From positions 1 through 64,000 of IMG/VR virus record IMGVR_UViG_3300012683_000008: DNA of 64,000 nucleotides; one strand, given 5' to 3'. Made by a program: the position numbers and the translations under genes. Of this stretch, positions 13,300-56,681 are shown piece by piece; position 1 is the stretch's first letter, and every line of letters starts with the position of its first letter. Source of the DNA: a virus. The notes beneath the pieces were generated by a model, which saw only the letters and a program-made list of their open reading frames with translations, did not search any database and was not told where the DNA came from.

Positions 13300-13636
13300 C
13301 CTTCTTCTCTTCCTTCTTCGTCATCTCGTGTTGGAGCGCCATCATCGCAGCAGTGAGAGCCATGGATCCGATTCCCACGGCTGGAGCGATGAACTTCATG
13401 CGAGTGGCTGGGAGGACCTGTTCATACCTCTTGGAGAGTCCTGTCGCCTTCATGATGTGGGGGAGAGCCAGAGTGATGCCTGTTCCTACTGCCCCACCAA
13501 GAGTCGCAAGGCCGATGTTCTTCAGCACCTTCTTGAGAGGCTGATCCTTCTTCTCCTCAGCGATCTTGTCGAGCTCATCGAAGAGCCCCACGAGGGTGGC
13601 CGTAGACAGCGAAGATGTCGGAGAAGTCTTCTTCAT
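13292..13636 (-). CDS. Leader-tagged glycine-zipper membrane-like protein
   Basis: LSTATLVGLFDELDKIA followed by two hydrophobic GxxxG helices; start codon uncertain. Confidence 0.65.
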   Translation of the reverse strand: MKKTSPTSSLSTATLVGLFDELDKIAEEKKDQPLKKVLKNIGLATLGGAVGTGITLALPHIMKATGLSKRYEQVLPATRMKFIAPAVGIGSMALTAAMMALQHEMTKKEEKKDV

Positions 13637-15253: not shown

Positions 15254-15262
15254 GAATCTCCT

Positions 15263-18200
15263 TTAGGGGCCGCTGATCTCGGCAGAAGCCAGAGCCGTGA
15301 ACGTGTCGTCCTCACCACCTACAACGAGAACCGTGTTGTTGGGGAGCATGAAGGATACATGACCAGCCCTCTTCGTGGTCATGTTGATGCCAGCAGGGTG
15401 GCTCCAAGTGTCGCCACCTGGGTTGTAGAGACGCACATCGTTGGTAGCTGCACCACCGGTGAGCTGACCACCAAACACACCTACTGACCCATCTGCGAAG
15501 AGGTGGGCAGTGTGTCGAGACCTGCTTGAGGGGAGGTTCGCACCGTGCGTCACCTGACCGCCGGACCAGATGTCAGGGCCCTGGGGGTCGAAGATGTCGA
15601 GGGCCGAGTTGCCACCGAAGTTCCCTTCTCCGCCGATCAACAAGACCTTCGAGTAGCCGAAGGCCGGGGGTAGCTTGACCATGGCGAACTTCACGTGAGG
15701 TCGAATCTTCTCTTGAGTCGCAGCACTGGTAGTGACTTCCTTGTCCGTCCCCAAGAGATTCATGATCACTGCGGTCGTGCCTGACGTGCCACCCGTGATG
15801 GTTTCACTTAGGGAGAAACCACCGACGGCACTGCCGTAGACAAGGACGCCGGTAAACCCATCGACCGGCACCGCATAGACAACAGCAGTAGCCCCGCTTG
15901 TGCCCCCTGTGATGGTCTCCCCTGGGGTGAAAGTTCCGAACTTGAAGCTGAAGGCGATGTTCTGGCCTGAGACAGCTTCTCCGTTGAGAATGTTGAGGAC
16001 AGAGCCCTCATCGGTTCCAAAAGTCAGAACGCCTGTAGTGGTCAAGATCGGATGAGGGTTGTCATCCTCCAGTCTTCCCCAAGAGAACGTCGTACCACTG
16101 GCGATGTAGACCCCAGAGTTCATGGGACTGCCGCCACCAGTTGCTCCTGTGTACGGAAGGAGAATCCCAGGGATGCGACGCCAGATGTCGAAGTCCTTGT
16201 CGTAGGCCTCCATGGTCCTGACGTTCAGACCGTTGTCGTCAACTCCGCCGGCCACCAAGACCATGTCCGAACCAGCGATATGAGCCTCGACGACGCTGTG
16301 GTCTCTTCGCTTGTAGAGCATCGGAGAGACGAAGGCCCACTCCTGGAGGTAGTAGGGGCCATTGGAGAAGAAAGCTGCGAAAGCGTCTCCTCCTGAGCTG
16401 TCGGTGATCTCTTCCGACTGAACCCAAAAGCCACCGACTACGTCAGAGACGATGAGCTCAGGGCCCCCAAAGAACCCGAACGGATTGATCTGCCGAATGA
16501 TGCCCGTAGTCCCGCTCGTGAGACCGGTGAGAGTTGCCCCGACAGTGAATGGCGAAGTCTGGGCGGTGACTGGAACACGCTGGCAGGTGCGGTAGAAGAG
16601 GCGCTCTGCGGTATTGGTGACGCCCGAAACCGTCTCACCACCTGCTCTCAGAAGGTCATTGACCTCGATACCTCCCACAACGTGTCCCTCGACAGCCTCC
16701 TGCATAGAGGGCGTGGAGCTGTGGCTGTTGCTGAAGAAGCCATCGATGCTGCCGAAGCCCGGTGAGTAGGGGTTGTATCTCGCGACGGAGTCTGTCCTGA
16801 AGGTGCCGCCCTGAAGGCCGCCGACGATGGCTCCGTAACGATTCTCCGCATCGTTGATGGTGACATCACTGTGAACGACGGCTGCACCTTGAAGGCTGGT
16901 CGTGATGTTCGTGATTCGCTCTACTTCTTGTCCATCGATGCTGTAGATGTCCCCATCAATCGGATCGACACCAGCATTGGTGCCGCCGAAGACCATGTAG
17001 CGACTGACGTCAGAAGCCGGGTTGATGGGGCCCCATCCAATCTTGTAGCCCTGCAAGTCTTTGCGGGGCTGGCTCATCGAGGCAGCGGCGGTCCAGTTCC
17101 AAGTCGGAGCCGCAGGTGTCGCCGGTGTGTGGAAGTGAACCTCGACGAGATTGGTATCGAGGTTGAATGCTATGGGCGTCTCGCCCTGAAACGTCTCGAA
17201 GACATCCATGTCTCTTGCACGAACCACGAAGTAGTAGTCCGTGTCAGGAGTGAGGCCGAAGAGTTCGATCCCTTTGCTGCCAGCCCATGCCTGCGTAGTG
17301 ACGTTCGGAGAATTGAAGTCCTGCCCGCCTGAGCTATTGGCGTAGTAGACGTAGTAGTTGAGGTCGTTGACGAAGGTCTTCGCATCCGATCCTGGAGCCC
17401 AGCTCAGGTAGACCCGTCCATCTTGGCTGCCGGCTCTGACTGAGACGAGACCTGCGAAGGTCGGCTTCCCACCGTCATCCTTCTTGAAGGTGCTCAGCAG
17501 AGAGTAGTGGCCAACATGATGAGGGACGAGGAATCCGCCGGTCTGACCACCCAACATCAAGAAGGTGTTCTTCGTGATGTGGAAGAGGCAGTCTCCAACT
17601 GGAAGAGGCTCAGGGTAATTGAACTGCTTCTCGAACCAGGTGTTGGTCTTGATGTCGTAGTACGAATCTCTCGGAAAGAAGTTCTTCAACACCATCACGA
17701 GAAAGCCGCCGCCAATGTCAAAGAGGAGCTGAGATCCGGGGCTCGAAGAGATGCTCTGGAATGACCCACTCATGGTCGCCAGAGGAACGAACGAATTCGT
17801 GATCAGATTGAAGCGGTCGATGTAGAGAATGAAGGAGCTGTTCGAATCGGCTGCATACGTCTCACCAGCATCGGTGGTGAGAAGCATGAAGCCCCTGTTA
17901 CCGGCCTGGGGCTGATTCGCCGTAGGAGCCCACGAGTTGCCGACCGGATCATAGATCTCAGCCGTTGCGACACCTCCGGCAGTCACGAGCACACGGCCAT
18001 CGGCCAGCAGAACTGCGACGCACCCAACTCGTGCGTGCGCCATAGAAGCCTTGGCGGACCATGTATTGGAGCCCTGGTTGAACATCTCAACGGTGGCGAC
18101 AGGGGCAGCGAGATTGTCGACTCCGCCGATGCGAAGGACGTGGCCGCTTGCGAGAGTGACGAGCGTGTAGCCGCTGACTGCATTGCCGCCCATGTCAGGC

Positions 18201-40402: not shown

Positions 40403-41470
40403 CTACTTGGCGAACAGGGACGACGAGGTGATGTCAGGGGTCGTTGGGGAAAGGGGAGGGCCGGTTGGAGCTCCAGGCGACGTTGTCGAGTGCATGTGGT
40501 TGTCGAGCCATGTCAGAAGAGGAGGGGCGAGAGCAACTCCCTTGGTCCCACCGCCGGCGTAGAGCTTTGGCTTGCAGTTCACCTGGCCCGAGCCTTCGAT
40601 GTTGACGTCGCCTCCTGATGACTTGATGTCGACACCGTCGCTGCCCTTGATCTCCGCTTTCTTCTTTGAGTCGACGTTGAAGTTGTCTTCCGTCTTGATG
40701 GTGATGGCCTTCTTTACCGTGAGCTTGAACTCCCCGTCGATCACCAGCTCAGCGTCCTTCTTCGTCGTCAGCTTGAGCTTGCCGTCTTTACCAAGACTTA
40801 GCTCGATCTGTTTCTCGGCGCCGCTCTTGCCCTTGTCATTGATGAGAAGGGTGAGAATACGGTCGTCTCCATCACCGTGGGAACCGATAAGAAGCTTGGC
40901 AATTGGCTCCTCGTCGTCTGCGAACTCTCGGGCTGCGATCAAGAGAGAGGCTGGTCTCTTCCCGTCAGTCGTGCTCTCTTCTCGTTCCACTTTCCATTCG
41001 AGGTCACCACCGAGAGTATGGAGACCGTAGTTCTCACAGAAGTCTTTGATGGTGTTGGCGATGGGCAGGAAGATCCTCTGGCACAGAGGCCCAGCCCCTA
41101 TCTGTACGACTCCACCTCTCCGCAGAAACAGAAAGTTCTCGTCACGGGTGCCCATGTAAATGTCACCCGGATTGAGGTCTTTCTTCTTCGCCCTCGCATC
41201 TCCGTCTTCGGACGCTGGCCCCCATGCGAGGATGAAGGGCCGGTTGTGATCTGAGGGCGAACAGATCCAACAGAGGCTGCCCACCTCCGGCATGAAGTAG
41301 ATGCCCTCACCGTTCGAGTAGTGCTGGTACGGCGTGGCGAACTTGATGCCGGTCAGAGGCTTCTTCGAGAACTCGGTGGCAGCAGAGACCGTGTAGGTCG
41401 TGATGTCGACGTCCAGGATGATCCCGGACTCGATCCTGGCTGCAATTACCTCAGACTGAGTCGGAGTCAT
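40403..41470 (-). CDS. Baseplate central spike (gpV/gp5-like)
   Basis: OB-fold MPEVGSLC, beta-helix repeats, C-terminal HxH (NHMH) metal tip and PTGPP. Confidence 0.75.
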   Translation of the reverse strand: MTPTQSEVIAARIESGIILDVDITTYTVSAATEFSKKPLTGIKFATPYQHYSNGEGIYFMPEVGSLCWICSPSDHNRPFILAWGPASEDGDARAKKKDLNPGDIYMGTRDENFLFLRRGGVVQIGAGPLCQRIFLPIANTIKDFCENYGLHTLGGDLEWKVEREESTTDGKRPASLLIAAREFADDEEPIAKLLIGSHGDGDDRILTLLINDKGKSGAEKQIELSLGKDGKLKLTTKKDAELVIDGEFKLTVKKAITIKTEDNFNVDSKKKAEIKGSDGVDIKSSGGDVNIEGSGQVNCKPKLYAGGGTKGVALAPPLLTWLDNHMHSTTSPGAPTGPPLSPTTPDITSSSLFAK

Positions 41471-44400
41471 CAGTACACGTACTTGGCTTTGCTCGGCGGA
41501 GCCTTACCGAACTCGGCCCCATACGCTACACCAGGAATCGGGTGAGTGCCGTGGAGGTCGGACTTCATGTTCGTTGCCACACCCTCCTGAAGGGTCGAAC
41601 GAATCTGCTGGAAGTTGAGCCGGGCCATCCAGTCCTTCGACCGCATGGGCAACTGGTTGACCGACTGGAGCATCGGCCGGTGAACGACCTGCCTGGCACC
41701 CTTTGCCATCTCCCGGTTTCTCTCTTCGACCTTCGAAAGGGCGATGATGTCTCCAGGCGTGTAGTCCGAGTCTCCTGGCTCTACGACCTTGGTGAGGTTC
41801 GTGAGGGCCCTGACCACCGTCTCGATGTTCCTCCGCCGCACGCCCTCTTTCTTGTAGAGGCCATTGTAGAGCTCGTTCGTGAGGTGGTTCTGCACGTTGG
41901 ACATGTCGGTGTACTTCAGGAGGTGCAGAGGGTTGACGTGACCTTCTGAAATCGCATCACCCTTCTTCACCTCGGACCCGATCTGAACCATGAGCGGCAG
42001 CTTCACCGGCACGTAGTGACGCTCGTCACCGATGAAGATGTCGTGACCACCGGCCGCATCCTTCTTGATGTCCGTCACCTTGCCGGTCACCTTCGAGAGG
42101 GTCGCCTCGTTCTTCAACTTCTTTGGCACCTTGAGGAGGTTGTTCAGCTTCTCGAAACGGCTGACCGACATCGCTCCTCTCGTGCTGCCGGCGATGCCGC
42201 CGGAGTGGAATGCGTCCATCGCCATCTGCACAGCCGGTTCACCCATCGACTGGCCAGCGAGGATGCCGACGTTCGTGCCCTCTGAGTGGAGGGTTCCGTT
42301 CTCGTTGAGACCGAAGCACTTGGCGCAGATGCCTTCGCCCTTGTGGCACTTGAGCGGAGAACGAACGACGACCTTGTCGTGCTTCGAGTTCTTCAGCCGG
42401 CTCCAGATCTCTGGAGTGACGAGCGTTCCGGCCTTGATGACCTTGCCGTCTTTCGTCTCGTACGGCTTGGCCAAGAAGCGATCGTGGATGTCCTCGTGTT
42501 CGAGCGGCATCAGAACGCCGTGGGTAGTACCGCAGTCCTCAGACGTGATGAGGTAGTTCATCGTCGAGTTGAGGATCTCCTTCGACATCGCTCCAGGCTC
42601 GCTGGTGCCCTGAGCACGCTGGAGGGTTCCCTTGCGAGCGCCGTGCTGTGCCAGCCAGTAGTCGCCGATGTCCAGACCTTCGGAGTAGCTCCTGGTCACA
42701 GGCGTTGGGATGGTCCGGTTGGTCGCATCCTGCATCAACATCGGAGCAGCGATCATCTGTCGGAGCTGCTCTGGCTTTCCACGAGCCCCGGAGTAGACCA
42801 TCGTGGCAAGACGGTTCGACGTACCAGCGAGCTGGTGCCGAGCTGAGGCATCGAGCTCTTCGGTCGCCTTCGAGTAGATACTGACGAGCTTCGCATCGAG
42901 CTCGTCCTTGCCCTTGACGGTCTTCTTGGCCTGATCCGCTTCCTTGTGGGCGACGGCCAGGATGCGGTCTCGACCTTCTAGGGGCTTCAGGTCCTTCAAG
43001 CCGATGGAGAACGCCGTCTGGTAGGAGTGCTCGTTGCCGAGATCCTTCAGGGCGTCGATGGCCTGAGCGAAGTGCTCTGAATGGTTCTTGGCGAGATCCG
43101 TCGCCATGTGGCTCATCGTCTTCTTGTTGATCTCGTAGCTCGGATCGTGAAGAACACCCTCACGCATATGCATGGTCTTCGGCAGCCACGCAGCGATGCG
43201 CATGCGGCCGAGAGTGGTGTCCTTGCCGTTGAGCTTGATGATGTCCGTGTGCTCGATCTCGTGCTTGTCAGCAGCACGGTCGACTCCGGCACCGTCAGTG
43301 AAGCTCTTGGTCGTCTTCTTGCCCCACTTCGACATCAGGTGGAGACCGAGCATTGCTTCCTGGCTCGGCGTGTACATGACGCTGCCCGTGGTCGGGGAGA
43401 AGAGGTTCCTCGACGGGAACATCTTCTTGGCCTCGTCCACTGCCTCACGAGACAGAGGCACAGTACCGGCCATAGTGTCACCGTCGAAGTCGGCGTTGAA
43501 ACCACCGGTGACGAGCGGGTGAATCTGAATGGCCTTGCCTTCGATGAGCTTCGGCTGGAACGCCATCACCGAGAACTTGTGGAGTGCAGGGTCACGCTTC
43601 AGGAGGATGGGGCGGTCCTTCACCACCTCTTCGAGTGCCTTGAAGGCGAAGTCGGTCCCGTCCTTCATCTCCTTGCGAGCGACGAGAGGATCCATGCCCC
43701 AGCGTCCGAGCTGGGCGACCACGAAGGGCTTGTAGAGCTCCATCGCTGCGTTCTTCGGCAGGCCGACCTGATCGATGTGCAGGTTCGGCTCGGGGATGAT
43801 GGTGGAACGGATCGAGAGGTTCTGCCGCCTCTTGACGAGCTTCGACTGGAAGTAGGCGTCCTTTGGCTGGTCGCCTTCTCCAGAGCCACCGAGAGTCTCC
43901 AGGATGCCCTTGAGCTTCCTCCGACCGCTCGACTCGTCGTAGACGGGTCGGTAGTCGCCGACTGCCTGGAGTGCTTTGTAGGCGTCCCAGAGAGCTGACT
44001 GGAGCGGCTTCCGATCGCTCTCCGTGAAGACCGCTGGGTCCCAGTCCTTGAGAGCCTGGTTGACGATGGCGAAGTTCTTGTAGTGCTGAACGATGGGCGG
44101 AGTGTTCACGTCCCCACGGTCTGTCGGCGTCATCGGCCGGAAGACCGGCGGGATGATCGGCAGGTAGTGGGTCATGTACGCCTCAGCGGGCGACATGCCG
44201 TTCTCTTTCAGAGCGGTGAGGAACTTCACCTTCTTGTGGAGACGATCGAGCTGAGCTCCCTTCACCGTCTTGAGCCGCTCCTTGGCCCCACGAAGTTCGG
44301 CATCGACGTCAAGCTTCTGCAATGCGGACTTGATGGCCGCACCACCGGTCTTGCCGTTGAGGTCCTGCTTGCCGGCCATGATGGCGTCGATGTCTTCGAG

Positions 44401-47400
44401 CTTCAGGTGCAGCAAGGTCGGAACCGGACCTGGTCGGTTGCCGGCGCCCACGAAGATGGGAGACGGCATCGGCTCCGCCATGCGGATGAAGGACCACTTC
44501 TCGCCCTCGATCCCGCCCGTGGCGTGAGGGTCGTAGAGACCACCCTTCTCTTCCTTCAGGTCCTTCGCACGGAGGGTGTACTTGCCCTTGGTGATTTCGT
44601 TCTTGCCGTTGTTGGCGAGACGAAGAGTGTCCTTGTCCGTGAGAGGCAAGAGACGGATCTCCGTCCCCTCCTTCTGCACGTTGATGCCTGAGCCTTTGAG
44701 CAGCGCCTCGAACTTCTTGTACGAGAACGGGACCTGAGGAGGAGGCGGCTCGAACCCCTGCTGGATGCGGACCCAGAAAGAGTCGTCCTGCTTGTCGGAC
44801 TTGTACGTCGCCATCTCTCGAACGTTGTGCCGAGCTCCGTGTCCCAGCATCGAGTAGAGCTCAAGCTGGCCGAAGCCCTGCCCACCGTGGGCACCGCCCT
44901 TCACCGGCTGACGATCGAGGCTGTAGGTCAACGGCTTGTTGTCGAGTGTCGTGCCACCGCCACGAACGCTGAGCTTCTTCTCGACCTGGTGACGCAGCTT
45001 CAACAGGTACTGCGGCCCGACCAGGACCGAGCCCATCACCCTCGACGGGTCCTTCGGGTCGAAGACGTGCTCTTCATCGTTGATGCCGTGGTGCTTGAGC
45101 TCATCAACAACCTGAGAACGGTAGTCGTGGTTCGGTCCTGAGAAGTTGTTGACGACATACGGCTTGCCCGTCTTCTCGGCGATCTTTCCGGCGGCGGTCT
45201 CCAGAAGTTGTCCGACGTTGATGCGTGTAGGAACTCCTGAAGGGTTGAGAAGAACTTCGAGGGGCTTGTGCTCACCTTTGGGATCCTTCGTGAACGGCAT
45301 CTCGTGATCGGGAATGATCTGCGTGATGATGCCCTTGTTTCCGTGACGACCAGAGAGCTTGTCTCCGACCACCATCTGCTCTTCGGTCCTGACGTAGACC
45401 TTCACGCCCTTGCCGTTCGGCTGATGAACGACTCGAACCACCTCGCCCATGTGGTCCTCGTCCCAGACGAGGCTCTTGTCCTTGTAGGCGAAGAACTTGT
45501 TGTAGCGAGAGCCGAGGGCCGCCAAGGCGCTGCCGCCCTTGGTGTTGGTGTTCTTGGACAGGGCAGTGATCAGCACTGAACCAGGCTTCACCTTCGTGCC
45601 GACCTTGATGACACCGTGCTCGTCGAGAGAGTCGAACTCCTCTTTCGTCATCTCCGTCGCCCGACGGGAGGCGAAGGCGTGCCAGGACTTCTTGTTGACC
45701 GTATCGTTGTCCGGATCGATCTCCAGGTTCTTCCGGTACAGGTGCTCGGAGGTCAGCTTCTTGGCTGCCGTCTCTGAGATGACGATGCCGTCTTCGAAGT
45801 TGTAGCCCTTGTACGGCATGTACCCGACCCGGAGGTTCGTTCCGATCGCGAGCTGGCCGTCTCTGGTGAAGTTCGTATCGGCCAGGAGCTGGCCTTGCTT
45901 CACCGAGTCTCCGACCTTCACCTGGGGAGTCGAGTGCATCATCCCCTTGTCGTCGTTGAGCGGGAAGTGGTTGTAGAGGTGGACTTCGTGCTTGCTCTTC
46001 CCCTCGCCGATGACGATGAAGTTCGGGGTCACGCTGGTGACCTTGCCGGAGACTGGAGAGTTGATGGAGCTGAACGAGCCGATGACCTTCTCGAAGGTGC
46101 TGGCTCCTTCCGTCTTTGATTGCACCAGTGGCGCCTCACGATGCTTCAGTGAGATGGCCTGCTCCATCTGCTTGTCGGCCATCGACACACGGTTTCCTTG
46201 GTCGGTTGGTAGGAAGGGAATGAGGTTCGAGGTGTAGTCGAAGAGACCCTTGGCCGAGGGAAGGACGTACGTCGCCTCCTTGAACGGCCGGGTCTCGATG
46301 GCCCCGCCTGGAAGCTTCATCTTAACGTTGGCGGAGATGGGTACTGGCTTGCCCTTCTCCCACTTCACCTGGTCAGGAAGCACAGCAGACGCCTGGTGAA
46401 ACGCTGGCACCCCCACGTACTCGATCTTGCCGGAGGCGATGGAGAAGGCGGGTGTCTCCAGCTCCTTGCCGTTCTTCCGAACGTTGGCTGCCAGGTAGAG
46501 CGTGATGCCTGTGCGCTCTGACTCCGGGGTGTGCATCGGGTCGAGGAACCCGAAGTGGCTCGGGTTGATGACCTGCATCTGCTCGGTGATGGCGTTCTTG
46601 TTCTTGATACCGCCGAGGTCAGAGAAGAGCGTCGTCTTCCGGTGACCCGCCATCATCTGGAGCGGGTTGGTCTGGTCGTACCGCTCGATGATCTTGGTGC
46701 CGCCGCTGAGGAAGAAGGCGTTGATGGGCTTCTTGAACAGGTCAGGAGAGACGATCTCCGTGATGGTCTTCTTGTGGTCGACCGTCTGACGCAGCTTCAC
46801 CTTGATGTTCTTGGCGTTCCTCGCCAGCATCTCGGGAACGAAGTCCTCGACAGAGACGACCTCCTTGAAGGCGAGGCTGTCACGGTCATCCGGCTCCTGG
46901 GTGCCACGAGAGACGCCCAGAATCTTGTTGGCTGCCAACTTGAGCACTTCGCCGTTCACCTGAGTGAAGGGCTTGCCCAGCGTCACCTTCGTGGTGTCAG
47001 GAAGCAGGGCCGTGCTGTCGAAGAAGTGGTGAACGTAGGCGTGGTGACCGGCGTCGTCCTTCGGTACCTCAGCGTCCTCTTCGTTCGTCCTCTTGAAGAA
47101 GTCCTGAAGAGCCTTCTCGTTCTTCTTGTCGAACTTGTTGGAGTGGAAGATCTCCGCTCCCCACTGGTGCTCCAGCTCGTCGTCCGAGACGCCCATCGAC
47201 TTCATGATGGGGTAGAGCGGAATGTGAGCTGAGCCGTACTTGAACGAGAACTTCTTCGTGCGAGGGTTCAGGTGGATGGAGAAGTTGCTGCCCAGCTTGC
47301 GAGCCAAGTTGAACTCAGATTCGAGCTCGCCGTTCTCCTGCACTCGGGCGTAGACGCCTGACTTGAGGCGGAAGAGGTGGTCGACCTGGTACTCGTTGCC

Positions 47401-47709
47401 GCTGACGATGAAGCCGTAGCGGCTGGTGAGCTTCGGAATGGTGGCCAGTGTGGCCTTCTTCTTGTCGATGACCTGCCCTGTCGTCTTGTCGATGAGAGAC
47501 AGGTTGGCGACGACCGGCACGCCCCAGGTGCGCTCGTTGTCCTTGGCGTCGGCCTGGGACTTGATGTCACCGATGTCGAGCTTGTCGTCGACTCCGATGC
47601 TGTCGAGAACGATCTTCTGTCGCTTGCCCTCGAACGGGAAGTACGCACCGATGGAGCTGACGACGTTCTTCTTCAGCGTCTCGAAGCTTGCTTCTGGGGT
47701 GATGTCCAC
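41470..47709 (-). CDS. rpoBC: Fused beta-beta' multisubunit DNA-directed RNA polymerase
   Basis: beta motifs GYNFEDG, GDKLSGRHGNKG, NPSGVPTR.N.GQ, GGQGFG; beta' motifs RDPALH, NADFDGD, GARKG, RSPLKC..CAKCFG, GEPAVQMAMDAFHSGG. Confidence 0.97.
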   Translation of the reverse strand: MDITPEASFETLKKNVVSSIGAYFPFEGKRQKIVLDSIGVDDKLDIGDIKSQADAKDNERTWGVPVVANLSLIDKTTGQVIDKKKATLATIPKLTSRYGFIVSGNEYQVDHLFRLKSGVYARVQENGELESEFNLARKLGSNFSIHLNPRTKKFSFKYGSAHIPLYPIMKSMGVSDDELEHQWGAEIFHSNKFDKKNEKALQDFFKRTNEEDAEVPKDDAGHHAYVHHFFDSTALLPDTTKVTLGKPFTQVNGEVLKLAANKILGVSRGTQEPDDRDSLAFKEVVSVEDFVPEMLARNAKNIKVKLRQTVDHKKTITEIVSPDLFKKPINAFFLSGGTKIIERYDQTNPLQMMAGHRKTTLFSDLGGIKNKNAITEQMQVINPSHFGFLDPMHTPESERTGITLYLAANVRKNGKELETPAFSIASGKIEYVGVPAFHQASAVLPDQVKWEKGKPVPISANVKMKLPGGAIETRPFKEATYVLPSAKGLFDYTSNLIPFLPTDQGNRVSMADKQMEQAISLKHREAPLVQSKTEGASTFEKVIGSFSSINSPVSGKVTSVTPNFIVIGEGKSKHEVHLYNHFPLNDDKGMMHSTPQVKVGDSVKQGQLLADTNFTRDGQLAIGTNLRVGYMPYKGYNFEDGIVISETAAKKLTSEHLYRKNLEIDPDNDTVNKKSWHAFASRRATEMTKEEFDSLDEHGVIKVGTKVKPGSVLITALSKNTNTKGGSALAALGSRYNKFFAYKDKSLVWDEDHMGEVVRVVHQPNGKGVKVYVRTEEQMVVGDKLSGRHGNKGIITQIIPDHEMPFTKDPKGEHKPLEVLLNPSGVPTRINVGQLLETAAGKIAEKTGKPYVVNNFSGPNHDYRSQVVDELKHHGINDEEHVFDPKDPSRVMGSVLVGPQYLLKLRHQVEKKLSVRGGGTTLDNKPLTYSLDRQPVKGGAHGGQGFGQLELYSMLGHGARHNVREMATYKSDKQDDSFWVRIQQGFEPPPPQVPFSYKKFEALLKGSGINVQKEGTEIRLLPLTDKDTLRLANNGKNEITKGKYTLRAKDLKEEKGGLYDPHATGGIEGEKWSFIRMAEPMPSPIFVGAGNRPGPVPTLLHLKLEDIDAIMAGKQDLNGKTGGAAIKSALQKLDVDAELRGAKERLKTVKGAQLDRLHKKVKFLTALKENGMSPAEAYMTHYLPIIPPVFRPMTPTDRGDVNTPPIVQHYKNFAIVNQALKDWDPAVFTESDRKPLQSALWDAYKALQAVGDYRPVYDESSGRRKLKGILETLGGSGEGDQPKDAYFQSKLVKRRQNLSIRSTIIPEPNLHIDQVGLPKNAAMELYKPFVVAQLGRWGMDPLVARKEMKDGTDFAFKALEEVVKDRPILLKRDPALHKFSVMAFQPKLIEGKAIQIHPLVTGGFNADFDGDTMAGTVPLSREAVDEAKKMFPSRNLFSPTTGSVMYTPSQEAMLGLHLMSKWGKKTTKSFTDGAGVDRAADKHEIEHTDIIKLNGKDTTLGRMRIAAWLPKTMHMREGVLHDPSYEINKKTMSHMATDLAKNHSEHFAQAIDALKDLGNEHSYQTAFSIGLKDLKPLEGRDRILAVAHKEADQAKKTVKGKDELDAKLVSIYSKATEELDASARHQLAGTSNRLATMVYSGARGKPEQLRQMIAAPMLMQDATNRTIPTPVTRSYSEGLDIGDYWLAQHGARKGTLQRAQGTSEPGAMSKEILNSTMNYLITSEDCGTTHGVLMPLEHEDIHDRFLAKPYETKDGKVIKAGTLVTPEIWSRLKNSKHDKVVVRSPLKCHKGEGICAKCFGLNENGTLHSEGTNVGILAGQSMGEPAVQMAMDAFHSGGIAGSTRGAMSVSRFEKLNNLLKVPKKLKNEATLSKVTGKVTDIKKDAAGGHDIFIGDERHYVPVKLPLMVQIGSEVKKGDAISEGHVNPLHLLKYTDMSNVQNHLTNELYNGLYKKEGVRRRNIETVVRALTNLTKVVEPGDSDYTPGDIIALSKVEERNREMAKGARQVVHRPMLQSVNQLPMRSKDWMARLNFQQIRSTLQEGVATNMKSDLHGTHPIPGVAYGAEFGKAPPSKAKYVY

Positions 47710-47824
47710 GTTGTGCCCTTACCCTGCGCCAGGTGAGGAAGTCACGATCGACCAGACCCTACCCTTGCGCAGCAAGGGTCCTCAGGCCCGTCGGCAGGGT
47801 ACATGAAAACAGACTCTTGCCCAA

Positions 47825-47832
47825 GGTATAAG
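47825..47832 (+). promoter_or_regulatory. Putative phage promoter motif GGTATAAG
   Basis: Recurrent motif heading a plus-strand cassette. Confidence 0.6.
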
Positions 47833-47871
47833 GTCAGAGTCGTAGAGTAACAGCTCTGCGACGGAGGGATC

Positions 47872-48024
47872 ATGGGACCAGACGACAAAGATGAAGAGAA
47901 GCCGAAGTCGCAGTCCGAGATGTTCGAAAAGGAACGCAACGATGCGTTCTTCAGTCATCTCGATGGGGAGAAGAAAGAAGACGAAGAGGAAGAGGAGAAG
48001 AAGCCGGCAGAGGAACCGAAGTGA
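47872..48024 (+). CDS. Small acidic protein (50 aa), not in ORF track
   Basis: GGAGG RBS; MGPDDKDEEKPKSQSEMFEKERNDAFFSHLDG. Confidence 0.65.
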   Translation: MGPDDKDEEKPKSQSEMFEKERNDAFFSHLDGEKKEDEEEEEKKPAEEPK

Positions 48025-48129
48025 AGATCTTCCTGCTGGGAATACTGATCCGAGTCCTCCAGTACGTCGTGTGGACTCTCCACGTCGAGTACCAACGTCT
48101 CTCAGGGATGACCCTGAACTGAGGTCCGA

Positions 48130-48612
48130 ATGCTCGCCTCTTGTCCCATTCTCTTCTTGAGTACGGGTGGCCAGTTAGACAAACGAGGCAGGCCTCTTTT
48201 TACCTTCAACGGAACTGAGATGGTGCCTCTGGGAAATCCAGAGGCACGTCTCAACTGCGATCGAGCGTACGACTGCGGAGTCTGCACCCTGCTCCACAGA
48301 TGGCTCGAAGCCAGAACCGCTGAGGGGTACTCCTTTGGGTGGGAGTGCGACCGCTGCCTCAAGTACACCCTGGAGCTCGACAGGACGAACAACATCGAGC
48401 GCATCGTCACCGGCTACTACCAGGCCGGGAGAAAGTTCGACATCGATCCAGGGGATGAGGCCTTTGATCCCGACAGGCCTGGCCTCGATGGATGCACCCA
48501 CGTTCATGAGTTCGAAGACCCCGAAGTGAACAAACAAGCGGGCGAGAGATGCTGCTGGGAGACTTCCTTCCTGCAACTCGTCCTGCGCAGAAGGAGAGCG
48601 GATGGCCGATGA
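48130..48612 (+). CDS. Cys-rich hypothetical protein
   Basis: GAGG RBS; CGVC and CDRC. Confidence 0.65.
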   Translation: MLASCPILFLSTGGQLDKRGRPLFTFNGTEMVPLGNPEARLNCDRAYDCGVCTLLHRWLEARTAEGYSFGWECDRCLKYTLELDRTNNIERIVTGYYQAGRKFDIDPGDEAFDPDRPGLDGCTHVHEFEDPEVNKQAGERCCWETSFLQLVLRRRRADGR

Positions 48613-49015
48613 AATTCCCCCATACCCGTTCTTCCAACAACCCGACTACGTCCAAGCATTCGAACCGGCTCAGTACCAGCCGGTGCCAGTGCCTCAAGCT
48701 CATGTGGAGTCGCAGAAGAACCTGACCTGCGACTACTGCAAAGAGCCCATCGTCGAAGGCGATGAGGCTATCAATGGGCTCTACGGAACGGCCAGCAAGG
48801 GTAGGAAGAGCGGACGCCTGATGGTGATGCCCGACAAGAACATTCCAGCGGGCGAGTTCAACATTCACATCATCTGCGTCTCAGGGTTCGTCGAAGAGAA
48901 CCTGCCCGAGGCTGCGGATGAGATTCGCCAGATGGAGTACGAGCCAGGAGACGAAGAAGCCGAGATCTTCTGCGCCAACTGTGACGCTAAGATCACCGAT
49001 GACAACGTCGGCTGA
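48602..49015 (+). CDS. Zn-finger hypothetical protein
   Basis: AAGGAG RBS; CDYC, HIIC, CANC. Confidence 0.7.
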   Translation: MADEIPPYPFFQQPDYVQAFEPAQYQPVPVPQAHVESQKNLTCDYCKEPIVEGDEAINGLYGTASKGRKSGRLMVMPDKNIPAGEFNIHIICVSGFVEENLPEAADEIRQMEYEPGDEEAEIFCANCDAKITDDNVG

Positions 49016-49229
49016 GCCGGTCTGGAAAGAAGACGTCGAGAAGGAAGTGGAGTACCTCGGAGAGGGATCTCGGACCCTCGCTGAGTTCTACCATCGACTC
49101 AAAGCCCATCAGGCACCTGCCGCACTGCTCGATGAACTAGCAGCAGCGTGGCAGGGCCTTGACGGCTCTCGACGTCGTCTCGAAGCACTGCTGGCGTGCT
49201 TCCCACCAGAACCAAGGACCACAAGATGA
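48999..49229 (+). CDS. Hypothetical protein
   Basis: Overlap-coupled small ORF. Confidence 0.5.
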   Translation: MTTSAEPVWKEDVEKEVEYLGEGSRTLAEFYHRLKAHQAPAALLDELAAAWQGLDGSRRRLEALLACFPPEPRTTR

Positions 49230-49429
49230 GACAGATGTCGGACAAGATGTTCACTGCGGTGGTGATCTCAGCGCTTCTCGCCTTTCTAGGGGCCCTGGGT
49301 TTTCTCATCTGGGCCACAAGGCCAACGGCAGCGAAGTACGAGGAGTGTCGACACTACTGCGCTCGCATGGATGCCCCTTCTTGGCAGTACGGAGCTCACG
49401 GATGCTTATGCGGAGGACCTACAAATTGA
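49226..49429 (+). CDS. Small membrane protein with Cys-rich C-terminus
   Basis: TM helix then C..C..CLC; ATGA overlap. Confidence 0.55.
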   Translation: MRQMSDKMFTAVVISALLAFLGALGFLIWATRPTAAKYEECRHYCARMDAPSWQYGAHGCLCGGPTN

Positions 49430-49782
49430 GTCGACCAAGCTTACAGAGAGTCAAAGAGTTCTCCGACGGCCTACCTTCATTCGGGAAGGTTCTGCGTGAG
49501 AAACGTGAAGCGAAGAGGATGACCATTCGAGGAACCGGAGAAGCATCCGGCATGGGCGCCTCGGACTGGAGCTACATCGAACACGGCCGCCTCTGGCCCC
49601 AGGAGAAGTACTACGACTTCTTGGCCACGTTCCTCGACACTTCTCCAGCGATGCTGAGGCAGGACATCAAGCGCATTCAGCATGAGCAGGAGCTGTGGAT
49701 GAAGAAGTACCAGGACGTCGCGGACTGGCTCAAGAAGATGGGCGAGAACAATGCGGCTATCCGAACGCTTGTCCTCCGCTAG
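49426..49782 (+). CDS. XRE-family HTH regulator
   Basis: FGKVLREKREAKRMT...WSYIEHGR; GGAGG RBS before TTG. Confidence 0.75.
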   Translation: MSRPSLQRVKEFSDGLPSFGKVLREKREAKRMTIRGTGEASGMGASDWSYIEHGRLWPQEKYYDFLATFLDTSPAMLRQDIKRIQHEQELWMKKYQDVADWLKKMGENNAAIRTLVLR

Positions 49783-50005
49783 GGAGAGGTACTGGAAGCT
49801 CAGCGGCTTCTCCCACCCTGAGGCCATTCGGCTCTACAAGCTCACCATCCAGCTTCGAGAGATGCCGGGTGGTGAGTGTCAGGTCATCCGGTTCATCGAC
49901 AAAGAGGAACACGAGCGGGTGATCATGGCGCCAATCCACTGGCCGTACGAACACGGAGCTCTCGTGCTGGCACGGGCCAAGAGCTGGAAGGAGCTAGGAC
50001 TGTGA
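49751..50005 (+). CDS. Hypothetical protein
   Basis: Coupled ORF. Confidence 0.55.
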   Translation: MRLSERLSSARERYWKLSGFSHPEAIRLYKLTIQLREMPGGECQVIRFIDKEEHERVIMAPIHWPYEHGALVLARAKSWKELGL

Positions 50006-50247
50006 GGAACTTTCTACGCCGCCTGAGGATCTGGCTGCTCGATCTCAGGTGCCCTGTCTGCTCTCTTGAGCTGGTCGACGAAGCAGGGTCAGCGATTCAC
50101 TGTGTCGAAAGGCACTACGTCCGCATCGAGATTCCGATGCAGGGCGGAGGTCTCTGCAAGATCGAACGCTACGACGAAGATGCGGAAGAGAATCTCTTCG
50201 TGTACGGCCACGAATCCTGTGATCATGGAATCGTGGGCTACGTGTAA
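50002..50247 (+). CDS. Hypothetical protein with CPVC
   Basis: GTGA overlap, ends just before a terminator. Confidence 0.55.
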   Translation: MRNFLRRLRIWLLDLRCPVCSLELVDEAGSAIHCVERHYVRIEIPMQGGGLCKIERYDEDAEENLFVYGHESCDHGIVGYV

Positions 50248-50250
50248 GGG

Positions 50251-50285
50251 GAGAAACGACCGGGCCGGGTCGTTTCTCTTTAGCC
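50251..50285 (+). terminator. Hairpin terminator followed by TTTAGCC
   Basis: GAGAAACGACC / GGTCGTTTCTC then TTTAGCC. Confidence 0.8.
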
Positions 50286-50368
50286 TTCGAACCGCAGCAC
50301 AACAGGAGAGAGGAAGCTCAGCGTCTGTTCTAGGTCCCTCAACGGTTCCAAGACGCCTTGCTACAAGC

Positions 50369-50635
50369 CTACGTTGCGGAAGGTGCCACTACGGGGTTGG
50401 GCTCTTCATCCGCCCACTTCCAGTAGTTGCCGTGCACCGGAGTCGCACTCTTGTGCGAGACAGACGTGTACCTCTTGATCTGCCTGCCGTAGGGATCCGT
50501 CTCAGCCTCGTTGTCGCTCAGCACGACGACGTTGATGCATGTCGGTCCCCAGACTGCGGTGACCAAGGCGTTGGACGGCTTGCCCACTGGATCCATGTAC
50601 TCGACGACACTTCCAACTTTCAGCTCTTTGCTCAT
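50369..50635 (-). CDS. Small SH3-like hypothetical protein
   Basis: LKVGSVVEY..ALVTAVW..INVVV. Confidence 0.65.
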   Translation of the reverse strand: MSKELKVGSVVEYMDPVGKPSNALVTAVWGPTCINVVVLSDNEAETDPYGRQIKRYTSVSHKSATPVHGNYWKWADEEPNPVVAPSAT

Positions 50636-50690
50636 TGCCTCTCTCCTGCGTGCTACTCCGCCCACTATGGGCGGGTAGTTCAGGAATCTC

Positions 50691-50957
50691 TCAGAGAATC
50701 AGCCCGCGAATCGTGTCCTTGGCGAAGGTCCACAAGAACTGACCCTCGGTCGTCGGGTCAAGCTCCTTCTTGCCTTCGGGACCAGGAGTCGCCTCGTCCC
50801 ACTTCTTCTGAACTCTCGCCTGCATCCTCTTGACGGCCTCGAAGACGACGACTGCGGCACGATCTGCCTGGCCGGCGTCAGGAGCGTGACCACGAGTCTT
50901 GATGAGGTCACGGATGTCAGCGAGCATCTTTTCATCTGTGGTGTTCTTGAGTGCCAT
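50691..50957 (-). CDS. Hypothetical protein
   Basis: Directly downstream of the portal gene. Confidence 0.65.
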   Translation of the reverse strand: MALKNTTDEKMLADIRDLIKTRGHAPDAGQADRAAVVVFEAVKRMQARVQKKWDEATPGPEGKKELDPTTEGQFLWTFAKDTIRGLIL

Positions 50958-50959
50958 GT

Positions 50960-52984
50960 TCAGCTCACCGGGGCGGGACGACGAGAAGGCTTCTGCTGCG
51001 GAATCGGACTCTGCGTCGGGTTCAACGGATCGGCCTGTGATCCCTGCTCGCTCTGGAGGAGACGGAAGACCACCATGTAGAGCTGGGGGTTCGACATCTT
51101 CATCCGGTTGAGCTCTTGGTACTTCTGAGCCTCAGGCATGCCCTGGAGCTTCTCGGCTGCACGCTTGGCGAGGTACAGGATGTTCGCACCTCCACCCTGC
51201 ATGCCCATCGTGAGTGGGCTCTGCATCTGCTGCGGAACACCTTCCTGAGGTGCCTGCTGGGCATTCTCCATCGAGACCGAAGAGCCCGGAGGCATCGCTG
51301 GGTCGACCGCCTGCCCGTCGAGCATCTCGCCTTCTTGCCCCGTCTGACCTCCGCCCTCTTGCCCTGGTGCCCCTCCTCCTGGAGGAGCCCCTTCCATGCC
51401 TGGCGCTCCGCCCTGGGGCATGGCGGCCATCATGATCTGCTGGGCCTGAGCCTGGTAGCGGGCCGTGACGACCTGCACTTCGCCCTGCACACCAGCCTGA
51501 GCGAGCTGCATCTTCCTCTGGTACTCCAGCTCCTTGTCGAGCTCGCCCTTCCGGCGCTCGGCCTCGACGATCGGGTCGAAGTCGGCTTCTTGGAGCATGG
51601 TCTGCTTCGAGATCATCATCGCCTGGTTCATCTGGAAGAAGAACGCAGTGCGCTGGAGATCGTCCGCCATCTTGAACCGGCGCATGTGGGCCTTCACTAC
51701 CGGCCAGCCCATGAACTCGGCGATGCGTTTGATGACGAACTTGTTGAGCATCAGGTGGTGGTCCGTGCGGTACCCGATGAACATGTTCTCCAGCATCCGC
51801 ATCGAGACGTTGGAGCCGGAGTACTGCATGCCGCCGAAAACGAACTCTTCGGGCACGCCCATGCCAGCCACGATGTGCCGGCTCCAGACTTCCATCTCCT
51901 GGTAGAGGCCGAGGGCCTTACCGTCTCCGCCGATGGACTCGTTGCCGATCGGCAGCGGCATGATGGGGATGTAGTTCTGGTCGTACTTCCACTTGGCGAT
52001 CTCCGACTCGATCCGACCCTTCCAGTTGTCGAGGTTGATCGTGGTGTACGGGTCGGCCGTGCCACCGTTGCCGGTCGGGAAGAGAACTCGCAGAGGAACG
52101 ATGTGCTCCTGAGCGATGGCTTCCTGAGCCTTGCGGAGGATCTGAAGGTAGAACGTATCCTTCAGCACCGGGAAGATGAGCGGCATGCCCCAGCCCATGT
52201 CCTTCTGGCTGATGATGGGCCGCTTGAAGACGAAGATGTTGTCGTCGGAGAACCGGATGAACTTGTTCCGACGCATCGCCTCGATGAACGTGTCGGGCAC
52301 GGTGTCGAGAACGTTCTTCTTCCCGAGGATGATGTCGTTCTTGAGCTGGATGGGGATCTCGAAGGTGTAGACCGGATCCGCTCCTGCGAAAGCTGGGTCG
52401 ACGTTGATGTACTCGGGGTTCCACCGCATCAGGCGAATGCGGCGGACGTCTCGCTCGAAGTAGTCGAGCACCTTCGCCGGGCCGTAGTGGCTGCACTTGT
52501 CGCACTGGATGATGTAGTCGAAGTTCTTCCAGGTGTAGGCCAGCTTCGAGGCCTTCTCCTTGTGCTTGCAGCGCTCGCAGATGAGCCACTTCGTGTACGG
52601 GAAGTGAACCGTGACGACGCACATCCCGTAGGTGTAGTAGTCGAGACCGACCTCGATCTGAAACGCTCGGTACCGCAGCATCTCTCCGAGAAGTGTCTCC
52701 CACTTCTCTTTGACTTCTTTCCTCTCCTCGTCGACGACGATCTCCGTCACCGGGTACTCGCTCATCTTGTGGACCACTGCGTTGATGAGCGGATTGACGA
52801 GGTAGTAGTACCGGCACCACCTCATCAGCGCCTTCATCGAAGGCGGGAGGTACGTGTGGCCGATGTCGAAGAATGGAGAGGGGTATCGGACGCCGCTCCG
52901 GCTCATGCCGTCAGCGGTACGCCCACGCTGACCGGAGAACCGGGACGTTCCCGAGAAACCAAGACCAAGATTGTCGAAGCTCAA
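50960..52984 (-). CDS. Portal protein
   Basis: NPLINAVV.KMSEYP, GWGMPLI, AGMGVP.EFVFGG..YS; Zn-ribbon insertion; Q/G-rich tail. Confidence 0.8.
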   Translation of the reverse strand: MSFDNLGLGFSGTSRFSGQRGRTADGMSRSGVRYPSPFFDIGHTYLPPSMKALMRWCRYYYLVNPLINAVVHKMSEYPVTEIVVDEERKEVKEKWETLLGEMLRYRAFQIEVGLDYYTYGMCVVTVHFPYTKWLICERCKHKEKASKLAYTWKNFDYIIQCDKCSHYGPAKVLDYFERDVRRIRLMRWNPEYINVDPAFAGADPVYTFEIPIQLKNDIILGKKNVLDTVPDTFIEAMRRNKFIRFSDDNIFVFKRPIISQKDMGWGMPLIFPVLKDTFYLQILRKAQEAIAQEHIVPLRVLFPTGNGGTADPYTTINLDNWKGRIESEIAKWKYDQNYIPIMPLPIGNESIGGDGKALGLYQEMEVWSRHIVAGMGVPEEFVFGGMQYSGSNVSMRMLENMFIGYRTDHHLMLNKFVIKRIAEFMGWPVVKAHMRRFKMADDLQRTAFFFQMNQAMMISKQTMLQEADFDPIVEAERRKGELDKELEYQRKMQLAQAGVQGEVQVVTARYQAQAQQIMMAAMPQGGAPGMEGAPPGGGAPGQEGGGQTGQEGEMLDGQAVDPAMPPGSSVSMENAQQAPQEGVPQQMQSPLTMGMQGGGANILYLAKRAAEKLQGMPEAQKYQELNRMKMSNPQLYMVVFRLLQSEQGSQADPLNPTQSPIPQQKPSRRPAPVS

Positions 52985-56583: not shown

Positions 56584-56681
56584 CAACTGCTCCTTGGAGG
56601 GAGGGAATCGAGCATTTCAGTGTAGGTCCTTCCCCTCGGAACGGTCAACGAATTCCCCCGGACAAGAACGAATGCTTTCAC

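What the first reader, a model, noticed from the sequence alone, without database searches (positions are those of the whole stretch)
41470..47709. Single-chain beta-beta' RNA polymerase embedded in the virion gene block
Seen: one 2079-aa ORF holds beta motifs (GDKLSGRHGNKG) and then beta' motifs (NADFDGD at 43477-43497, trigger loop GEPAVQMAMDAFH), with the junction near 44640-44735. It is far shorter than bacterial beta plus beta', shows no N-terminal beta' CxC..CxxC zinc ribbon, and its stop overlaps the start of the spike gene. No alpha, omega or sigma gene is recognisable in the window. Established: a lineage of Caudovirales encodes deep-branching multisubunit RNAPs. Inference: a minimal, late-expressed, possibly virion-packaged enzyme that transcribes early genes.
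Basis: partly seen in the sequence, partly recalled or inferred. Interest (0 to 1): 0.8.

Follow-up and report, generated by a model that had tools for sequence, protein, structure and literature searches.

The report
Single-chain phage RNA polymerase (beta-beta' fusion)
A large uncultured phage encodes both big subunits of a bacterial-type RNA polymerase as one seamless, stripped-down 2,079-residue protein among its particle genes. Its relatives also carry their own sigma factor and a shared promoter motif, so the phage probably brings a private two-protein transcription machine into the cell.

Summary
Window 41470-47709 (-) is one intact 2,079-aa ORF with beta domains followed by beta' domains, joined without a linker at about residue 1015.

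Compared with Salmonella beta+beta' (2,749 aa) it lacks beta SI1 and SI2, the beta' zinc ribbon, SI3 and both beta' termini, and it has no phage-specific insert.

The contig is only about 43% of a roughly 190-kb myovirus. More than 150 clusters of uncultured phages share this fusion and its gene order. In a beta' tree they form a clade outside 35 bacteria from about 20 phyla, so it is not a recent capture.

Complete relatives have no second RNAP, alpha or omega. They do encode a sigma70-family protein, so "no sigma" holds only for this fragment.

The nearest cultured relative, Salmonella phage Arash, has a split version; its two RNAP pieces and its sigma were detected in virion preparations.

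A strand-specific motif, CAAR-N16-GGNATAAG, is conserved across the clade and in Arash: 139 copies opposite the RNAP strand, 3 on it.

Virion packaging and early-gene transcription remain inferences. I found no paper describing the fusion. This scan reported the same family earlier on other DNA.

The parts
41470..47709 (-). Single-chain RNA polymerase gene (2,079 aa, ~230 kDa, GTG start)
   Evidence: A 93%-identical homologue has the same length.
44665..47709 (-). Beta module (residues 1-1015). Includes the rifampicin-pocket region (345-367), the flap, and the catalytic GDKLSGRHGNKG motif (782-793, window 45331-45366).
   Evidence: Pfam Rpb2_3/6/7. Alignment to Salmonella beta.
44650..44680 (-). 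Beta/beta' junction. The beta C-terminus ...GINVQKEG runs straight into TEIRLLPLT, which corresponds to E. coli beta' residue ~18. There is no linker.
41473..44664 (-). Beta' module (residues 1016-2079), lacking the zinc ribbon, SI3 and the C-terminal tail
   Evidence: Pfam Rpb1_1..5. The best PDB matches are bacterial beta' chains, E ~1e-116. Deletion map.
44512..44544 (-). Site where the beta' zinc ribbon (E. coli 62-93) is missing: GGLYDPHATGG followed by WSFIRMAEP
43477..43497 (-). NADFDGD catalytic Mg2+ motif
42316..42534 (-). Second zinc site (C1726, C1788, C1795, C1798), the only cysteines in the protein
42205..42243 (-). Trigger loop GEPAVQMAMDAFH with no SI3 insertion. Asp stands where E. 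coli has R933; the His is kept.
41468..41472 (-). TGATG: the RNAP stop codon overlaps the start of the next gene by one base
40403..41470 (-). Downstream 355-aa baseplate hub/spike-like gene, conserved directly after the RNAP in 7 of 7 related loci
   Evidence: PHROG baseplate assembly protein, E 8e-7. Pfam Phage_base_V, E 0.004, below cut-off. Top Foldseek hits are contractile-injection-system baseplate/spike chains, but the model is poor. Synteny.
47757..47790 (-). Conserved hairpin 55-85 nt upstream of the RNAP start (core ACCCTTGC-TGC-GCAAGGGT). It is unique in the genome.
   Evidence: Alignment of 13 loci; 6 of 9 pairs show compensatory changes. Single copy. No Rfam family.
47806..47832 (+). 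Divergent promoter-like element (AAAA-N15-GGTATAAG) pointing away from the RNAP gene. It heads the plus-strand cassette that starts at 47891.
   Evidence: The same position and orientation recur in nearly every related locus.
50960..52984 (-). Portal gene, upstream neighbour of the RNAP block. The portal...RNAP order is also seen in Arash and Vibrio phage D69.

Best explanation
The ORF encodes a functional, minimal, bacterial-type RNA polymerase core in which beta and beta' are one polypeptide.

**Shown**
- The catalytic parts are intact: the beta lysine motif, NADFDGD, the second zinc site, the bridge and trigger-loop region, the flap tip and the clamp helices.
- All lineage-specific insertions and the beta' zinc ribbon are absent.
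- The gene sits in a conserved block of virion genes.
- Complete relatives have no other RNAP, no alpha and no omega, but they do encode one sigma70-family protein.

**Inferred**
- The covalent link replaces the assembly role of the alpha dimer.
- The enzyme and the phage sigma are made late with the structural proteins and packed into the particle, as the Arash homologues appear to be.
- They enter the cell with the DNA.
- As a two-protein holoenzyme they start transcription at the clade-wide bipartite element CAAR-N16-GGNATAAG. In this contig that element heads only the plus-strand, non-structural units.

**Unknown**
Which polymerase transcribes the structural strand.
For: **Integrity and domain order.**

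**Deletion map.** There is no phage-specific insert of 12 aa or more.

**A large, conserved family.**
- More than 100 full-length homologues at 48-93% identity.
- The top 150 clusters at 50% identity are all this family, and nearly all are fused.
- The gene order helicase | o473-o337-portal | antisense cassette | RNAP-o355-o802-o296-...-terL holds in 7 of 7 loci.

**Not a recent capture.**
- All bacterial beta' sequences are only 27-33% identical.
- In the beta' tree, bacteria fall on one side (support 99), and the fused and split phage forms make one clade (support 97).

**Accessory subunits in relatives.** The ≥93%-complete relatives searched (G001-G005) have a single beta/beta' locus, and four of them (G001-G004) have no alpha or omega.

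**Sigma.**
- Arash Gp10 matches Pfam Sigma70_r3.
- Homologues with regions 2, 3.0 and 4.2 occur in 9 of 12 clade records, including all 5 that are at least 90% complete.
- The sigma gene lies on the structural strand, in a block syntenic with Arash gp4-gp13.

**Arash virion mass spectrometry.** Gp206 gave the most spectra. Gp216 and sigma Gp10 were also present.

**Promoter motif.**
- 10:0 strand bias in this genome.
- 139:3 across nine clade genomes, with unbiased controls.
- 36:7 in Arash.
- A conserved upstream CAAR element, and an RBS plus start codon 30-60 nt downstream.
Against: - There is no direct evidence for this phage or for any fused-clade phage: no proteome and no transcriptome.
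- The Arash preparation was purified on a sucrose gradient and contained 116 of 272 proteins, including primase, helicases and ribonucleotide reductases. Its authors themselves allow for carry-over.
- The sigma gene is not on this contig.
- Nothing links sigma to the phage core rather than to the host core, or links either to the GGNATAAG motif.
- The protein has no extra domain that could serve as a capsid-targeting or ejection signal.
- A sigma70-like TTGACC-18-TACACT element upstream of the portal block could equally well be the phage sigma's target.
- Vibrio phage D69 shows no strand bias for the motif.
Confidence: 0.6

Rival explanations
1. It is a non-virion polymerase. It is made during infection and used only for middle or late genes, like the phiKZ nvRNAP or the T7 RNAP. 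Host RNAP would start the programme, and the virion signal in Arash would be contamination by an abundant late protein.
For: The Arash virion list contains many non-structural enzymes, and the authors raise carry-over themselves. The protein has no recognisable packaging domain. A sigma70-like promoter precedes the portal block.
Against: The gene is embedded in the structural strand and translationally coupled to it in every relative, so it would be made too late to be useful within the same cycle. Gp206 is the top protein by spectra in Arash. The non-structural units carry a non-sigma70 motif that is conserved across phages with GC from 50% to 65% and in a Salmonella phage. That argues for phage-specific recognition from the very start of infection.
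Confidence: 0.2
2. It is a hybrid enzyme. The fused core recruits host subunits (alpha, omega and/or host sigma70), and the phage sigma instead redirects the host RNAP.
For: It is a bacterial-type core with the flap tip and clamp helices retained. A TTGACC-18-TACACT element precedes the late block. In jumbo phages that lack their own RNAP, phage sigma factors are thought to act on the host RNAP (PMC13282480).
Against: The core is only 27-33% identical to any bacterial beta', so conserved binding surfaces for many different hosts' subunits are unlikely. The zinc ribbon and the beta' C-terminal tail are gone. RNAP and sigma co-occur across the clade, and both are in Arash virion preparations.
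Confidence: 0.12
3. It is a recently captured bacterial rpoBC (for example from a host with a natural fusion), or bacterial contamination of the contig.
For: The best solved-structure matches are bacterial beta' chains. Natural rpoB-rpoC fusions exist in Helicobacter and Wolbachia (established knowledge).
Against: No bacterial genome among 185,579 species encodes a close relative. The 80 best bacterial beta' loci are all 27-33% identical. In the tree all bacteria, including a Campylobacterota member, lie on the other side of a branch with support 99. The gene is flanked by portal, baseplate and terminase genes in every relative.
Confidence: 0.01

Closest known systems
RNA polymerase of Salmonella phage Arash (Gp206 + Gp216, with sigma-like Gp10) and of Vibrio phages D69/D181/D148
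   Same: They fall in the same clade in the beta' tree, at ~31% identity over almost the whole length. The portal...RNAP order is shared. A homologous sigma70-family protein is present. Arash also shares the strand-biased GGTATAAG motif. The Arash proteins were detected in virion preparations.
   Different: There the chain is cut after the active site into a beta+beta'N piece (~1,525 aa) and a beta'C piece (~606 aa). The two pieces are separated by 0.6-4.8 kb, which in D181/D148 includes a homing endonuclease. Here it is a single chain. The Arash paper annotates the two pieces simply as beta and beta'.
phiKZ/AR9-type virion and non-virion multisubunit RNAPs of jumbo phages
   Same: They are phage-encoded relatives of bacterial beta/beta' that work without alpha or omega. 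One set is delivered in the virion to transcribe early genes (PMC7598289, PMC13282480).
   Different: In those phages beta and beta' are each split into 2-3 polypeptides, two separate enzymes are encoded, and there is no sigma homologue. Here there is one chain, one enzyme per genome, and a sigma70-family partner. This protein is also much closer in sequence to bacterial RNAP.
mReC lineage (Weinheimer and Aylward 2020, PMC7481178)
   Same: Both are uncultured Caudovirales from IMG/VR whose bacterial-type beta/beta' branch outside the cellular clades.
   Different: The published tables list separate beta (~920-1,560 aa) and beta' (~900-1,300 aa) proteins, often as two sets per contig, and no ~2,100-aa protein. 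The fusion, sigma and promoter are not described there.
Natural RpoB-RpoC fusions of Helicobacter and Wolbachia (established knowledge)
   Same: The beta C-terminus is joined head-to-tail to the beta' N-terminus.
   Different: Those are ordinary cellular enzymes of full size that keep alpha, omega and the zinc ribbon. Here the protein is 670 aa shorter than Salmonella beta+beta', and in the tree it lies outside all the bacteria sampled, including a Campylobacterota member, the phylum Helicobacter belongs to.
Single-chain virion RNAPs of other phages: crAss-like gp66, P23-45 tape-measure-fused RNAP, YonO, N4 vRNAP
   Same: One large polypeptide is carried in the particle to start transcription (PMC10770324 and bioRxiv 2020.03.07.982082, from their abstracts).
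   Different: Those enzymes are either too diverged for beta/beta' Pfam models to detect, or are T7-like (N4). None is reported to use a sigma70-family factor. This one scores 215 bits on Rpb2_6 and matches bacterial beta' at E ~1e-116.

Membership tests
Bacterial-type two-barrel RNAP catalytic core (beta + beta') | Beta barrel with the catalytic lysine motif GDKxxxRHGNKG | tested here: met
   Residues 782-793. Pfam Rpb2_6, E 2.5e-63.
Bacterial-type two-barrel RNAP catalytic core (beta + beta') | Beta' NADFDGD Mg2+ site, and the domain order Rpb1_1 to Rpb1_5 | tested here: met
   Residues 1405-1411. Rpb1_2, Rpb1_4 and Rpb1_5 score above their cut-offs; Rpb1_1 and Rpb1_3 score below.
Bacterial-type two-barrel RNAP catalytic core (beta + beta') | Beta' N-terminal zinc ribbon (CxC..CxxC) | tested here: not met
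   Deleted in this protein and in 140 of 140 full-length relatives.
Bacterial-type two-barrel RNAP catalytic core (beta + beta') | Second zinc site (four Cys around the bridge and trigger-loop region) | tested here: met
   C1726, C1788, C1795, C1798.
Bacterial-type two-barrel RNAP catalytic core (beta + beta') | Separate beta and beta' chains assembled on an alpha dimer, with omega | tested here: not met
   It is a single chain. No PF01000 or PF01192 match in this record or in four complete relatives, while all 14 control genomes matched.
Arash-type phage RNAP clade | Falls in one clade with Arash and D69 beta', apart from bacteria | tested here: met
   Clade support 97, bacteria 99 (SH-aLRT, LG+C20 quick search, 64 rows). 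No archaeal or eukaryotic outgroup was available.
Arash-type phage RNAP clade | Chain split after the active site into beta+beta'N and beta'C | tested here: not met
   The chain is continuous here and in nearly all of the top 150 clusters.
Arash-type phage RNAP clade | Accompanied by the Gp10-like sigma70-family protein | tested here: inconclusive
   None in this 43%-complete record. Present in 9 of 12 clade records, including all 5 that are at least 90% complete.
Arash-type phage RNAP clade | Protein present in virions | not testable with these tools
   Known only for Arash, from mass spectrometry of sucrose-gradient particles.
phiKZ/AR9-type jumbo-phage RNAPs | Beta and beta' each split into several polypeptides; two enzymes (virion and non-virion) per genome; no sigma homologue | tested here: not met
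   One fused locus per complete genome. A sigma homologue is present.
mReC lineage (PMC7481178) | Groups with the published mReC beta/beta' sequences | not tested
   No mReC sequences were available to the tools. The published tables show separate subunits and no ~2,100-aa entry.

The most novel reading that the evidence does not exclude
One 230-kDa polypeptide plus one phage sigma factor is a complete, virion-delivered, host-independent transcription machine that reads the whole ~190-kb genome. It would need no alpha, no omega and no second polymerase. That would make it the smallest natural sigma-dependent RNAP of the cellular type, with its own clade-wide promoter code (CAAR-N16-GGNATAAG).
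Probability: 0.25. Interest if true: 0.8.

Novelty: new variant of a known kind. Interest (0 to 1): 0.62.

Why it matters
Phage multisubunit RNAPs known so far (phiKZ, AR9) are fragmented into many polypeptides and have no sigma homologue. This clade does the opposite: it fuses everything into one stripped-down chain and keeps a sigma70-family partner.

If the two proteins suffice, three things follow:
- They would show how little of a cellular RNAP is needed. The covalent link would make alpha, omega, the zinc ribbon and all lineage-specific insertions dispensable.
- They would give a compact orthogonal sigma-dependent transcription system.
- They would add a third design for how large phages escape dependence on the host polymerase.

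The clade is large: more than 150 clusters at 50% identity, mostly on contigs of ~195-210 kb. It has a cultured, genetically accessible relative, Salmonella phage Arash, that shares the sigma and the promoter-like motif, so the model can be tested directly.

Tried and rejected
**Structure predictions**
- AlphaFold2 of residues 900-1500, spanning the junction, with an 11-row alignment gave mean pLDDT 47. The model is unusable.
- The model of the downstream 355-aa protein was poor (pLDDT 54) and gave only weak Foldseek hits.

**Motif searches**
- A TGTA-type element conserved upstream of the RNAP gene is not enriched in the window.
- CTACACT(C), the -10-like part of the conserved portal-block promoter, is not enriched genome-wide.
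- The upstream hairpin does not recur elsewhere in the genome and matches no Rfam family. Wobble pairs do not reveal which strand is functional.

**Database searches**
- A close-relative search of 185,579 bacterial and archaeal genomes found nothing.
- PF04542 alone did not detect the phage sigma. The Arash Gp10 sequence and a profile built from its homologues did.
- The PF00940 (T7-like RNAP) search found nothing, but its controls cannot match this family, so the result is uninformative.
The beta' half was used instead.

**Literature**
Searches for a described fusion found none. Subscription-only papers are not covered.
Full report
**1. The observation**

The window holds one uninterrupted ORF at 41470-47709 on the minus strand, with a GTG start and 2,079 aa.
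- Pfam finds the beta domains Rpb2_3, Rpb2_6 (E 2.5e-63) and Rpb2_7 at residues 345-974. The beta' domains Rpb1_1 to Rpb1_5 follow at residues 1134-1981.
GDKLSGRHGNKG is residues 782-793, NADFDGD is residues 1405-1411 (window 43477-43497), and GEPAVQMAMDAFH is residues 1823-1835.
- The stop codon shares one base with the start of the next gene (TGATG).
- A 93%-identical homologue has exactly the same length, so the start and end are sound.

**2. Anatomy**

I aligned the protein and seven relatives with Salmonella and Acinetobacter beta+beta'.
- The beta C-terminus (...GINVQKEG) runs directly into the equivalent of E. coli beta' residue ~18 (TEIRLLPLT). There is no linker.
- Missing relative to Salmonella:
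  - Most of beta 225-373 (SI1).
  - Beta 933-1047 (SI2).
  - Beta 1169-1210.
  - Beta' 1-17.
  - Beta' 62-93 (the zinc ribbon).
  - Beta' 146-176.
  - Beta' 952-1147 (SI3).
  - Beta' 1382-1407.
- There is no phage-specific insertion of 12 aa or more. The protein is 670 aa shorter than Salmonella beta+beta'.
- Retained: both catalytic motifs, the flap-tip segment, the beta' clamp helices and the second zinc site. The four cysteines of that site are the only ones in the protein.
- Several rifampicin-contact positions differ, so rifampicin insensitivity is likely. This is an inference.

**3. What it belongs to**

*The genome.* The record is an IMG/VR contig of 79,797 bp, linear, and 43% complete by CheckV. 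Neighbouring genes are portal, a baseplate-like gene, large terminase, major head protein and tail sheath, so it is a myovirus.

*Size of the family.*
- More than 100 full-length homologues at 48-93% identity, many on contigs of 195-220 kb.
- With the beta' half as query, the top 150 clusters at 50% identity are all this family. The beta' part begins near residue 1000 of proteins of 2,000-2,130 aa, so they are fused.

*Gene order.* The order helicase | o473-o337-portal | small antisense cassette | RNAP-o355-o802-o296-o158...terL is the same in 7 of 7 related loci.

*Cultured relatives.* The nearest are Vibrio phages D69/D181/D148 and Salmonella phage Arash, at ~31% identity. In them the chain is cut after the active site into ~1,525-aa and ~606-aa proteins.

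*Not a bacterial capture.*
- No bacterial genome encodes a close relative.
- The 80 best bacterial beta' loci, from about 20 phyla, are all 27-33% identical.
- In a beta' tree (64 rows, LG+C20), all 35 bacteria lie on one side of a branch (SH-aLRT 99). The fused and split phage forms make one clade (97), and the split pair sits inside its basal polytomy.
- No archaeal or eukaryotic outgroup was available. "Deep-branching" therefore means only "outside the sampled bacteria".

**4. Partners**

*Other polymerase subunits.* Five relatives that are 93-100% complete (177-209 kb, three with terminal repeats) have a single beta/beta' locus. No alpha or omega was found in the four of them that were searched (G001-G004) or in this record.

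*Sigma.*
- Arash Gp10 is a sigma70-family protein (Sigma70_r3, E 9e-9).
- It has homologues in 4 of 4 complete relatives.
- With a profile built from them, it is found in 9 of 12 clade records. That includes every record at least 40% complete, plus Arash and D69.
- The alignment shows regions 2, 3.0 and 4.2. PHROG 351, "RNA polymerase sigma factor", matches at E 1e-11.
- The sigma gene lies on the same strand as the RNAP, inside a block of large ORFs syntenic with Arash gp4-gp13.
- This window has no sigma gene. By synteny the gene would lie beyond the end of the contig.

**5. Virion association**

- In Arash, Gp206 gave the most spectra of any protein (3,516), and Gp216 (1,210) and sigma Gp10 (467) were also detected.
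- The particles were purified on a sucrose gradient, and 116 proteins were found, including replication enzymes. The authors allow for carry-over.
- For the fused clade, the evidence is the conserved position in the structural block and the translational coupling to a baseplate/spike-like gene.

**6. A candidate promoter code**

I followed up a lead from earlier first-stage notes.

*Strand bias of GGNATAAG (GRNATAAG in this genome).*

| Genome | Opposite the RNAP strand | Same strand as the RNAP |
|---|---|---|
| This genome (G000) | 10 | 0 |
| G001 | 15 | 0 |
| G002 | 12 | 1 |
| G003 | 25 | 0 |
| G004 | 24 | 1 |
| G005 | 24 | 0 |
| G006 | 4 | 0 |
| G007 | 15 | 0 |
| G008 | 10 | 1 |
| Salmonella phage Arash | 36 | 7 |
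| Vibrio phage D69 | 13 | 11 (no bias) |

- The nine clade genomes total 139 to 3. Controls with the reversed pattern are unbiased.
- In Arash the copies are mostly GGTATAAG.

*Other features of the sites.*
- An alignment of 61 sites shows a second element, c-A-A-r, about 16 nt upstream (A at 81-84%). An RBS and a start codon lie 30-60 nt downstream.
- Nearly every locus has one copy 135-180 nt upstream of the RNAP gene, pointing away from it. In the window this copy is at 47825-47832.

*Reading.* A bipartite element conserved across phages with GC from 50% to 65%, and in a Salmonella phage, fits recognition by the conserved phage sigma and RNAP rather than by diverse host sigma factors. That link is an inference.

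*The structural strand.* It lacks the motif. The portal block is preceded by a conserved sigma70-like TTGACC-18-TACACT element (window 56648-56619). Its reader is unknown.

**7. Novelty**

- The published deep-branching lineage (PMC7481178) lists separate beta and beta' proteins and no ~2,100-aa entry.
- Reviews of jumbo-phage RNAPs describe only split enzymes without sigma homologues.
- The Arash paper annotates its two pieces as beta and beta'.
- Five literature searches found no description of the fusion.
- The scan itself reported the same family on other DNA (e1-4041765, e1-5801722). My results were obtained independently of those notes and agree with them.

**8. Verdict**

- It is a real, minimal, single-chain bacterial-type RNAP of a large uncultured phage clade, and not a recent capture.
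- It most likely works with a phage sigma factor that the incomplete contig does not show.
- Packaging and early-gene transcription are likely but unproven.

Noticed in passing
window 1798, 2026, 3366, 31961, 35281, 47825, 56682, 62087 (+); genome 74429, 75404 (+): Strand-specific promoter-like element CAAR-N16-G(G/A)NATAAG. All 10 copies in this genome lie on the plus strand. Across nine clade genomes the count is 139 to 3, and in Salmonella phage Arash it is 36 to 7. An RBS and a start codon lie 30-60 nt downstream. In Arash the motif is followed by ..GTGTAAAC...
   Followed up: yes
window 47757-47790 (-): Conserved hairpin (8-bp core, loop containing TGC(G)) 55-85 nt upstream of the RNAP start. 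Six of 9 pairs show compensatory changes across 13 loci. It is a single copy in the genome and matches no Rfam family. It may be a 5'-UTR or autoregulatory element of the RNAP gene.
   Followed up: partly
window 56619-56648 (-): Sigma70-like TTGACC-18-TACACT element upstream of the o473/portal block, conserved in 12 related loci. A looser TTGAC-N17-TGTAYY sits upstream of the RNAP gene in relatives. The exact words are not enriched genome-wide.
   Followed up: partly
relatives P0007-P0264 (not in the window's gene): Eighty-two family members carry one to four intein-sized insertions (330-520 aa) with LAGLIDADG, Hom_end or intein-splicing Pfam domains. Hot spots lie at catalytic motifs: P0001 residues ~1411-1420 (NADFDGD), ~1836 (trigger loop), ~786 (GDK..RHGNKG) and ~396-405.
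   Followed up: partly
L001 (Vibrio phage D69) 12545-13184; L002 (Arash) 12539-17310: In the cultured relatives the RNAP gene is split after the active site. Small ORFs fill the gap, with a homing endonuclease in D181/D148 and nine genes in Arash. With the tree, this suggests that the split forms derive from a fused ancestor through insertion of mobile elements.
   Followed up: partly
window 47891-50833 (+): A plus-strand cassette lies between the portal and RNAP genes and is headed by the promoter-like motif. Its 160-aa ORF (48130-48612) is conserved antisense to the RNAP in all relatives but matches no family. The 207-aa ORF (49159-49782) has an HTH_31 domain (E 2.5e-7).
   Followed up: partly
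window 46609-46677 (-), residues 345-367: The rifampicin-pocket region differs from E. coli at several contact positions (around H526, R529 and S531), which suggests rifampicin insensitivity.
   Followed up: no
window 47742-47939 (-): The 65-aa ORF listed just upstream of the RNAP overlaps the conserved non-coding hairpin and promoter elements. It has no homologue in any related locus, so it is probably not a gene.
   Followed up: partly
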